Shown here piece by piece: positions 9,795 through 9,916 of a DNA stretch of 16,776 nucleotides. A program made the position numbers and the translations under genes. How positions within the stretch are numbered: position 1 is the stretch's first letter; each line of letters opens with the position of its first letter. Below the pieces are notes generated by a model that saw nothing but the letters and a program-made list of their open reading frames with translations, was not told the DNA's origin and did not search any database. Source of the stretch: Escherichia coli (GTDB lineage Bacteria > Pseudomonadota > Gammaproteobacteria > Enterobacterales > Enterobacteriaceae); assembly GCF_003334765.1 (NCBI RefSeq), contig NZ_QOWT01000053.1, one strand, 5' to 3'.

Positions 9795-9830
9795 TGCCGG
9801 ATGCGGCGTGAACGCCTTATCCTGCCTACA
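9795..9830. repeat. REP (repetitive extragenic palindromic) element
   Basis: tgccggatgcggcgtgaacgccttatcc matches the canonical E. coli REP consensus (GCCGGATGCGGCGTGAACGCCTTATCCGGCCTAC); lies between convergent yaaA and yaaX. Confidence 0.75.
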
Positions 9831-9874
9831 AAAGCATGCAGATTCAATATATTGCAGAATTAACGTAGATACTG

Positions 9875-9916
9875 ATAAGACGCGCCAGCGTCGCATCAGG
9901 CGCTGAATGCCGGATT
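9875..9916. repeat. Second REP element in inverted orientation (together with 9795-9830 forms a BIME-like pair)
   Basis: gataagacgcgccagcgtcgcatcaggcgctgaatgccggat is the reverse-complement-type REP (…GATAAGGCG…GCATCCGGC-like) facing the first copy. Confidence 0.65.

What the first reader, a model, noticed from the sequence alone, without database searches (positions are those of the whole stretch)
9795..9916. Inverted REP pair between convergent yaaA and yaaX
Two REP-like palindromic units in opposite orientation fill the yaaA-yaaX intergenic gap. Such BIME-type pairs act as mRNA stabilisers, gyrase/IHF sites or transposition targets, and their copy number here may vary between strains.
Basis: partly seen in the sequence, partly recalled or inferred. 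Interest (0 to 1): 0.2.

Follow-up and report, generated by a model that had tools for sequence, protein, structure and literature searches.

The report
Known REP pair, an IS621 target
The gap between the E. coli genes yaaA and yaaX holds an ordinary, already catalogued pair of REP repeats that many strains lack or have interrupted by the insertion sequence IS621, and this window's copy carries a 3-base change that may be a scar left by that element.

Summary
Window 9796-9901 holds a y-type REP (9796-9829), a 35-nt L-type linker (9830-9864) and an inverted z2-type REP (9865-9901), between convergent yaaA (+, ends 9782) and yaaX (-, ends 9936). In the published scheme this y-L-z2 arrangement is an "atypical" BIME. 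A third small hairpin (9905-9930) fills the rest of the gap.

The element maps to K-12 5565-5669, which I recall as the annotated "REP1". It is already known.

Among 5,426 complete E. coli genomes:
- 3,367 carry the intact element;
- 1,398 lack it, including ST131;
- 653 have IS621 inserted exactly at its ATCAGGC-CT-AC target in the z2 unit.

E. albertii also has the element, so the polymorphism is old and the element is dispensable. mRNA, IHF and gyrase roles are inferred from the literature and were not tested.

One extra finding: the window's z2 unit reads ATCAG-TAT-CT-AC. Only 63 genomes share this. It equals the IS621 right-end junction joined to the REP through a CAG microhomology. It weakens the hairpin and destroys the IS621 target. 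An IS621 loss scar is plausible (about 45%) but unproven.

Interest is low.

The parts
9006..9782 (+). yaaA coding sequence (peroxide stress protein); stop codon 9780-9782
   Evidence: ORF; RefSeq annotation under the matches.
9796..9829 (+). y-type REP unit in the 'iREP' orientation on the + strand, with its 3' CTAC at 9826-9829. It begins 13 nt after the yaaA stop codon. It has T at 9823 where paralogues have G.
   Evidence: Exact REP head. Hairpin of -15.1 kcal/mol, z = -3.5. Near-identical to y units at yjiR, gldA and fbaA. naRNA4 match E = 3e-5.
9830..9864 (.). L-type linker between the two CTAC/GTAG tails (tail-to-tail)
   Evidence: Conserved in the BIME-1 paralogues (AAAA..GCAnATTCAATATATTGCAG..). 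Weak Rfam ES036/CssrF match, E = 0.018. Junction queries that include it also hit other loci at 90-96% identity.
9842..9854 (+). IHF-core-like sequence ATTCAATATATTG: 12 of 13 positions match WATCAANNNNTTR
   Evidence: Scan. It is the only hit with up to 1 mismatch in 9781-9940 on either strand. Binding was not tested.
9865..9901 (+). z2-type REP unit in the 'REP' orientation on the + strand, with its 5' GTAG at 9865-9868. On the - strand it reads GCCTGATGCGACGCTGGCGCGTCTTATCAGTATCTAC.
   Evidence: Exact REP head on the - strand. Alignment shows the 7-nt longer z2 stem where the paralogues have z1. It folds on both strands.
9869..9871 (.). ATA in place of the GC found in K-12, E. albertii and the nearest relatives. 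This turns the IS621 target ATCAGGCCTAC into ATCAGTATCTAC. Candidate IS621 loss scar.
   Evidence: Full-length matches to a 51-nt query centred on it occur in only 63 of 5,426 genomes. It is identical to the IS621 right-end junction GTAG|ATACTG. The hairpin is weakened by 6-8 kcal/mol as RNA.
9905..9930 (.). Third, non-REP hairpin (AATGCCGG-loop-CCGGCATT), 6 nt after the yaaX stop. It is the only structure present in strains that lack the BIME.
   Evidence: Inverted repeat I4. Folds at -14.1 (+) and -14.5 (-) kcal/mol, z = -3.8 and -5.2. No T-tract terminator was called. The counterpart is retained in SCU-124, KOr021, L027 and L030.
9793..9802 (+). Left copy of the 10-nt direct repeat AATGCCGGAT; the right copy is at 9906-9915. 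The two copies bracket the 113-nt segment that is missing in BIME-less strains.
   Evidence: Direct repeat D1. The breakpoints of the BIME-less alleles fall in this repeat.
9936..10232 (-). yaaX coding sequence (DUF2502 protein); stop codon 9936-9938 on the - strand
   Evidence: ORF; RefSeq annotation.

Best explanation
What it is. This is a single REP doublet of the E. coli BIME class: y REP, L linker, inverted z2 REP (y-L-z2, an 'atypical' BIME). It lies in the shared 3' region of the convergent genes yaaA and yaaX. It belongs to the dispersed REP family that the RAYT/TnpA_REP transposase recognises. It is dispensable, because about a quarter of E. coli genomes lack it.

How it most likely works.
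1. RNA level (inferred). Transcripts from either gene run into stable hairpins. Each unit folds on both strands, or the two units pair with each other. Such hairpins impede 3'-to-5' exonucleases and define or protect mRNA 3' ends. The y hairpin starts only 13 nt after the yaaA stop codon, so it could also stall the terminating ribosome and lower YaaA output.
2. DNA level (inferred). The L linker offers an IHF-type site, and the y unit a possible gyrase site, between two converging transcription units.
3. Landing pad (shown). The foot of the z2 unit is a natural IS621 target, ATCAGGC-CT-AC. Occupied copies can then act as substrates for larger rearrangements.

This window's copy carries a derived ATA-for-GC change at exactly that site. 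The change weakens the z2 hairpin and removes the IS621 target.
For: Identity:
- Exact REP heads on opposite strands, above chance.
- Hairpins form on both strands.
- Alignment to BIME-1 paralogues shows the y unit and the L linker conserved, with z2 in place of z1.
- The y/z1/z2, GTAG and BIME-1/-2/atypical definitions come from PMC3333891.
- There is a median of 33 matching places per genome, and Rfam's REP-derived models match below threshold.

Dispensable and old:
- 1,398 of 5,426 genomes lack it.
- E. albertii and a cryptic Escherichia clade have it; another Escherichia lineage lacks it.

IS621 target:
- The insertion is flanked by the CT core in PI6 and other strains.
- 653 genomes are occupied at this site, out of 1,682 that carry IS621 at all.
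- The target sequence and CT core are from PMC11208160.
- In strain 2013C-3033 an occupied copy joins yaaA to yjjX/gpmB/rob.

RNA-level inference:
- The y hairpin starts at 9796, 13 nt after the stop at 9782.
- REPs fewer than 16 nt from a stop codon were reported to stall ribosomes (Liang et al. 2015, as summarised in PMC12306157).

DNA-level inference:
- The linker has a 12/13 match to the IHF core, and the BIME-1 L linker often carries an IHF site.
- Gyrase cleaves y REPs of BIME-2 in vivo (PMC6379681).
Against: - No expression, RNA-end, IHF or gyrase data for this locus were found or generated, so items 1 and 2 are family-level inferences.
- Gyrase enrichment was reported for multi-copy BIME-2 elements, not for single y-L-z2 doublets.
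- The IHF match is imperfect.
- BIME-less strains keep a hairpin at about the same distance from both stop codons. Whatever the hairpin does near the stops does not need the REP pair.
- The wide occurrence of the empty allele argues that any benefit is small.
- The RefSeq table for K-12 shown here lists no repeat feature. The 'REP1' label rests on my memory of GenBank U00096, although the computed coordinates 5565-5669 agree with it.
Confidence: 0.9

Rival explanations
1. This rival concerns only the 9869-9871 ATA allele. It is an IS621 loss scar. IS621 once sat in this REP (ATCAGGC-CT-[TGTATT...AACAGTAT-CT]-AC). It was then deleted between the CAG of the target's left half and the CAG at the IS right end. 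That leaves ATCAG-TAT-CT-AC, an allele IS621 can no longer target.
For: - The window sequence equals the predicted deletion product base for base.
- The change is compound, two substitutions plus one inserted base. It is the only difference in the BIME from relatives that differ by 9-12 SNPs in 16.7 kb.
- An IS621-occupied allele exists on essentially the same 3-kb local haplotype, in SCZE5.
- The identical GTAGATACTGATAAG signature occurs in z2 REPs at two other loci in other strains, where K-12 has GGCCT at the yacG-mutT site.
- One of those loci, upstream of dppA, is IS621-occupied in 305 genomes.
Against: - The IS621-occupied strains first sampled at this locus are about 1% diverged from the window. 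No occupied strain was found among the window's closest relatives.
- No occupied allele was found at the third locus, yacG-mutT.
- A 3-nt microhomology deletion of 1.28 kb should be very rare next to recombinase-mediated precise excision.
- A local templated mutation that re-copies TATC from the adjacent TTATCAG, or REP-to-REP gene conversion, could also recur at several loci.
- I did not establish whether the window's lineage carries IS621.
- No published description of such scars was found, but the original IS621 paper was not available.
Confidence: 0.45
2. The structure is simply a bidirectional intrinsic terminator for yaaA and yaaX, not a repeat-family element.
For: It lies between convergent genes. 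It has strong hairpins on both strands. Enterobacter and Leclercia have a plain GC-rich hairpin at the same position.
Against: - No terminator-like site (hairpin plus T-run) is called anywhere in 9600-10100.
- The sequence recurs about 33 times per genome.
- It aligns to BIMEs at unrelated loci.
- The separate small hairpin at 9905-9930, followed by TTGTCATTT on the + strand, is the better candidate for a weak terminator.
Confidence: 0.05
3. The doublet encodes a free-standing small RNA of the naRNA/Cssr type (REP325-like) that acts with HU in nucleoid condensation.
For: Rfam naRNA4 (RF02564) matches both units, and ES036/CssrF matches the linker. naRNA4 is a Y-l-Z2 unit, and many REPs are transcribed (PMC4550694).
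Against: - All scores are well below the gathering thresholds: 38 and 34.5 against 59.5, and 24 against 37.6. The matches only reflect shared REP sequence.
- The linker here is L, not the short l of REP325.
- It is a single copy rather than six tandem units.
- The only promoter-like site in 9600-10100 lies inside yaaX (10026-10054), downstream of the element on the + strand.
Confidence: 0.03

Closest known systems
E. coli REP / palindromic units, types y and z2 (Stern, Higgins, Gilson, Bachellier; convention of Ton-Hoang et al. 2012, PMC3333891)
   Same: 34- and 37-nt imperfect palindromes with the conserved GTAG/CTAC foot. They have a mismatch in the stem, an extragenic position and many copies per genome. 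The sequence is nearly identical to other y and z2 units.
   Different: The y unit has T for G at 9823. The z2 unit has ATA for GC at its foot, which removes two stem pairs.
BIME-1 / RIB-RIP elements (y - L linker with IHF site - z1)
   Same: y unit, tail-to-tail arrangement, single copy, and an L linker with the ATTCAATATATTG core shared with the copies at yjiR, gldA and fbaA.
   Different: The partner unit is z2 (GATAAGACGCGCCAGCGTCGCATC), not z1 (GATAAGCGTAGCGCATC). By definition it is therefore not BIME-1.
BIME-2 (tandem y/z2 with short linkers; gyrase sites; REP325/naRNA)
   Same: Composed of y and z2.
   Different: It has a long L linker instead of S/s/l/r. There is one doublet rather than tandem copies. 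Rfam naRNA4 matches are below threshold.
Natural IS621 (IS110-family, bridge-RNA-guided) target sites in REPs
   Same: In K-12 and most strains the foot of the z2 unit is the exact 11-nt natural target ATCAGGCCTAC. IS621 (1,279 bp) is found there flanked by the CT core in 653 genomes.
   Different: The window's allele, ATCAGTATCTAC, is three edits away from the target, so it should no longer be recognised. This was not tested experimentally.

Membership tests
REP (E. coli palindromic unit) | 30-40 nt imperfect palindrome able to form a stem-loop | tested here: met
   The units are 34 and 37 nt. They fold at -15.1/-14.7 (y) and -16.4/-14.9 (z2) kcal/mol on the two strands, each with an internal mismatch.
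REP (E. coli palindromic unit) | Conserved GTAG (or CTAC on the complement) at the foot of the palindrome | tested here: met
   CTAC at 9826-9829 and GTAG at 9865-9868. Both are invariant in alignment A2. The definition is from PMC3333891.
REP (E. coli palindromic unit) | Sequence match to the y / z2 types | tested here: met
   The y unit differs from paralogous y units at 1-2 positions. The z2 unit shows the z2-specific longer stem. Both heads are exact matches to GCCKGATGCGRCG.
REP (E. coli palindromic unit) | Extragenic and highly repeated in the genome | tested here: met
   It lies between two stop codons.
BIME-1 | y plus z1 separated by the long L linker, single copy | tested here: not met
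   The L linker, the y unit and single-copy status are met, but the partner is z2, not z1.
BIME-2 | y plus z2 with short linkers (S; s/l/r), usually in tandem copies | tested here: not met
   y and z2 are met. The linker is the 35-nt L type, and there is one doublet only.
Atypical BIME | Chimera that combines BIME-1 and BIME-2 motifs (y, z1, z2, L, S, s, l, r) | tested here: met
   y-L-z2, with the definition. The family is described as usually multi-copy, and this one is single.
IHF-binding BIME (RIB/RIP) | IHF binds the L linker | tested here: inconclusive
   The core matches WATCAANNNNTTR at 12 of 13 positions, at 9842-9854. Binding itself cannot be tested with these tools.
Gyrase-binding BIME | In vivo gyrase cleavage within the y unit | not testable with these tools
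   Only family-level literature is available (PMC6379681). No data were retrieved for K-12 5565-5669.
IS621 natural target | 11-nt ATCAGGCCTAC with a CT core | tested here: not met
   The window reads ATCAGTATCTAC. The K-12, E. albertii and nearest-relative alleles do meet it, and they are occupied in 653 genomes.
Intrinsic terminator | GC-rich hairpin followed by a T-run | tested here: not met
   No site was called in 9600-10100 on either strand.
Rfam naRNA4 (RF02564) | Score at or above the gathering threshold of 59.5 bits | tested here: not met
   38 and 34.5 bits.

The most novel reading that the evidence does not exclude
The ATA-for-GC change at 9869-9871, and identical changes in z2 REPs upstream of dppA and between yacG and mutT in other strains, are scars of imprecise IS621 loss through a CAG microhomology. 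Bridge-RNA elements would then leave recognisable footprints in natural genomes. Each footprint converts a REP from a perfect target into a site immune to re-insertion, and also weakens the REP hairpin.
Probability: 0.4. Interest if true: 0.35.

Novelty: already known. Interest (0 to 1): 0.15.

Why it matters
As a REP/BIME it matters little. It is a textbook repeat at a catalogued position, and a quarter of E. coli genomes do without it.

Its modest value is as a clean natural example. One REP doublet exists in four states across 5,426 genomes: absent, intact, IS621-occupied and possibly scarred. An occupied copy also marks a rearrangement breakpoint.

If the scar reading is right, it would give a simple sequence signature for tracing past IS621 activity. 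It would also show how target sites for a bridge-RNA recombinase become immune. That is of some interest now that IS621 is being used as a genome-editing tool.

Tried and rejected
- Promoter and terminator scan of 9600-10100: no terminator. The one promoter-like site lies inside yaaX.
- Rfam: only sub-threshold REP-derived hits.
- The first attempt to count IS621-occupied alleles over-counted, giving 1,257 genomes. IS621 junctions at other BIMEs share the linker. I replaced it with a query anchored in unique yaaA sequence.
- Haplotype test of the scar idea. Six occupied strains were about 1% diverged from the window, so they are not sisters. Only SCZE5 shares the local haplotype.
- The two-piece hit IAL7255 and the 1-nt-shorter hit MARGA_4 were unrelated to the REP: an IS near yjjY and an msyB frameshift.
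- Occupied allele at yacG-mutT: not found.
- In-register heteroduplex repair after IS621 strand exchange (idea from PMC11208158): rejected, because everything upstream of TAT is shifted by +1 nt.
- Quasi-palindrome correction: rejected, because the change makes the palindrome worse.
- RAYT strand exchange at the GGCC|TAC site: rejected, because it would replace the whole left side, not 2-3 nt.
- Papers not held: Liang et al. 2015 and Choi et al. 2003.
- Supplement searches for yaaA, yaaX or REP1 found nothing.
- Literature searches for yaaX with REP or IHF found nothing relevant. One search was badly designed and uninformative.
- Polarity of the presence/absence polymorphism could not be settled. 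Both states occur outside E. coli.

Full report
**Where we are.** The window is the E. coli thr-yaaX-yaaA-yaaJ-talB-...-dnaKJ region in reverse orientation. It is 100% identical over positions 1-16700 to several commensal and clinical strains. yaaA runs + 9006-9782 and yaaX runs - 9936-10232, so the genes converge on a 153-nt gap at 9783-9935.

- GCCGGATGCGGCGTGAACGCCTTATCCTGCCTAC (9796-9829);
- a 35-nt spacer (9830-9864);
- GTAGATACTGATAAGACGCGCCAGCGTCGCATCAGGC (9865-9901), which has the same architecture in the opposite orientation.

The evidence that this is more than chance:
- The REP head GCCKGATGCGRCG occurs exactly twice without mismatch in the 16.8-kb window, at these two places on opposite strands. 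With up to one mismatch there are four hits, against 0.14 expected.
- Each unit folds on either strand at about -15 kcal/mol. The whole gap folds with z-scores of -3.6 and -3.8.
- A 301-nt query around the element matches a median of 33 places in every one of 5,426 complete E. coli genomes.
- Rfam's REP-derived models give sub-threshold, non-random hits on both units and on the spacer.

Its last 15 nt belong to a third, separate hairpin (9905-9930) that fills the rest of the gap.

**What it is.** Alignment with paralogous elements next to yjiR, gldA and fbaA gives three results:
- The left unit is a y-type REP, one or two differences from the paralogues.
- The spacer is the conserved L linker (AAAA..GCAnATTCAATATATTGCAG..).
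- The right unit is the longer z2 type, where the paralogues have z1.

In the scheme summarised by Ton-Hoang et al. (PMC3333891), BIME-1 is y-L-z1, BIME-2 is tandem y/z2 with short linkers, and chimeras are "atypical". This element is y-L-z2, so it is an atypical BIME present as a single doublet. The two units map to K-12 5565-5669. That agrees with my recollection of the GenBank U00096 feature "REP1, contains 2 REP sequences". This is memory only, because the RefSeq feature table retrieved here lists no repeat feature.

**Variation between strains.** The three main states account for 5,418 of the 5,426 genomes:

| State | Genomes | Source |
|---|---|---|
| Intact element | 3,367 | |
| Element absent, 39-bp gap with one hairpin (AATGCCGGATGGCAATCCGGCATT); includes ST131 | 1,398 | |
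| IS621 inserted in the z2 unit | 653 | |

- The 113-nt segment that is present or absent is bracketed by a 10-nt direct repeat, AATGCCGGAT.
- Outside E. coli, E. albertii and a cryptic Escherichia clade carry the complete y-L-z2 element. Another Escherichia lineage and the GTDB E. coli representative lack it.
- Enterobacter and Leclercia have an unrelated GC hairpin at this position. Citrobacter and Salmonella lack yaaX here and carry their own REPs.
- The polymorphism is therefore old. Its direction, insertion or deletion, could not be settled. The element is clearly dispensable.

**Transposition target: shown.**
- In PI6 the REP strand reads CTTATCAGGC-CT-[TGTATT ... AACAGTAT-CT]-ACGT, with a 1,279-bp insert.
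- That is the natural IS621 target ATCAGGCCTAC with its CT core, as described for the bridge-RNA recombinase (PMC11208160).
- IS621 is present in 1,682 genomes, with a median of 8 copies. This site is occupied in about 39% of carriers.
- In strain 2013C-3033 the occupied copy joins yaaA to yjjX/gpmB/rob instead of yaaX. This indicates a rearrangement with a breakpoint at the IS.

**How it probably works otherwise: inferred.** The literature assigns several roles to REPs and BIMEs:
- protection of mRNA 3' ends;
- partial transcription termination;
- ribosome stalling when a REP lies fewer than 16 nt from a stop codon (Liang et al. 2015, as summarised in PMC12306157);
- IHF binding at L linkers;
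- gyrase cleavage at the y units of BIME-2 (PMC6379681).

At this locus the supporting features are these:
- The y hairpin begins 13 nt after the yaaA stop codon.
- The small hairpin begins 6 nt after the yaaX stop codon.
- Both REP units fold in both transcripts.
- The linker has a 12/13 match to the IHF core at 9842-9854.

None of these roles was measured. BIME-less strains keep a hairpin at similar distances from both stop codons. Any effect that is specific to the REP pair is therefore likely to be small.

**The one unusual detail.** The window's z2 foot reads ATCAG-TAT-CT-AC, where K-12, E. albertii and the window's nearest relatives read ATCAG-GC-CT-AC.
- Full-length matches to a 51-nt query centred on this allele occur in only 63 genomes.
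- Relatives that differ by 9-12 SNPs in 16.7 kb differ within the BIME only at this point. The change is therefore recent and compound.
- It is identical to the IS621 right-end junction (...CAGTAT-CT-AC). It is the exact product expected if an inserted IS621 were deleted between the CAG of the target's left half and the CAG at the IS end.
- An occupied allele exists on the same 3-kb local haplotype, in SCZE5.
- The same signature occurs in z2 REPs upstream of dppA and between yacG and mutT in other strains. The dppA-upstream site is IS621-occupied in 305 genomes.

Points against the scar reading:
- The occupied strains first sampled at this locus are about 1% diverged from the window.
- No occupied strain was found among the window's closest relatives.
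- No occupied allele was found at yacG-mutT.
- A 3-nt microhomology deletion should be rare.
- A local templated mutation or REP-to-REP gene conversion could also recur at several loci.

Whatever its origin, the change has two consequences. It costs the z2 hairpin 6-8 kcal/mol as RNA and about 4 kcal/mol as DNA. It also moves the site three edits away from the IS621 target. I rate the scar reading at roughly 0.4-0.45.

**Verdict.** The finding is a correct identification of an ordinary, already catalogued REP doublet. Novelty: already known. Interest: low. The possible IS621 scar is a small lead worth following up.

Noticed in passing
window 16701-16776: The last 76 nt of the window are the left end of an IS30 element, including the start of its transposase (ATGAGACGAACATTT). 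All 60 best-matching genomes stop matching at 16700, so none of them has IS30 at this position near yjjY.
   Followed up: partly
L005 (strain 2013C-3033), 3165-4445 and beyond: IS621 in the yaaA-side REP is followed by yjjX, gpmB and rob instead of yaaX and thrC. The orientation suggests an inversion of the roughly 13-kb thr-arcA-rob segment between two IS621 or REP copies.
   Followed up: no
L009 ~1502-1535 (upstream of dppA); L010 and L011 ~1500-1535 (yacG-mutT gap): z2 REPs at two unrelated loci in other strains carry the same GTAGATACTGATAAG (ATA-for-GC) signature as the window. The dppA-upstream site is IS621-occupied in 305 genomes. No occupied allele was found at yacG-mutT.
   Followed up: partly
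L008 (strain SSGNw2), 1589-1620: A BIME-less allele in which the 10-nt AATGCCGGAT is present three times in tandem. This points to slippage at the same repeat that brackets the BIME.
   Followed up: no
L023 (strain SCZE5) against window 1700-16700: SCZE5 is nearly identical to the window across 8168-11162 but differs at many sites on both sides (196 differing columns in all). This looks like a short recombination tract centred on the yaaA-yaaX-thrC junction.
   Followed up: no
window 9783-9935, both strands: In the minimum-energy fold of the whole gap, the y and z2 units pair with each other into one long interrupted hairpin instead of two local ones. A read-through transcript therefore has two competing structures.
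   Followed up: no
window 5896-5908 and 8371-8383 (- strand): There are one-mismatch matches to the REP head motif inside the mog and yaaJ coding sequences. They are probably chance matches. They have no palindromic partner that I looked for.
   Followed up: no
L014 (strain IAL7255), 16545-17618: A sibling strain of the window's clade carries an extra IS-type gene (integrase core domain protein) between yjtD and yjjY. It is at a different position from the window's IS30 end.
   Followed up: partly
L031-L056 (Citrobacter, Salmonella), about 1975-2100: These genera have no yaaX after yaaA. They carry their own REP types there, for example GCCGGATGGCGGC...CGCCTTATCCGGCC and GTAGGCCCGGTAAGCG. The 3' side of yaaA has therefore been colonised by REPs independently.
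   Followed up: no
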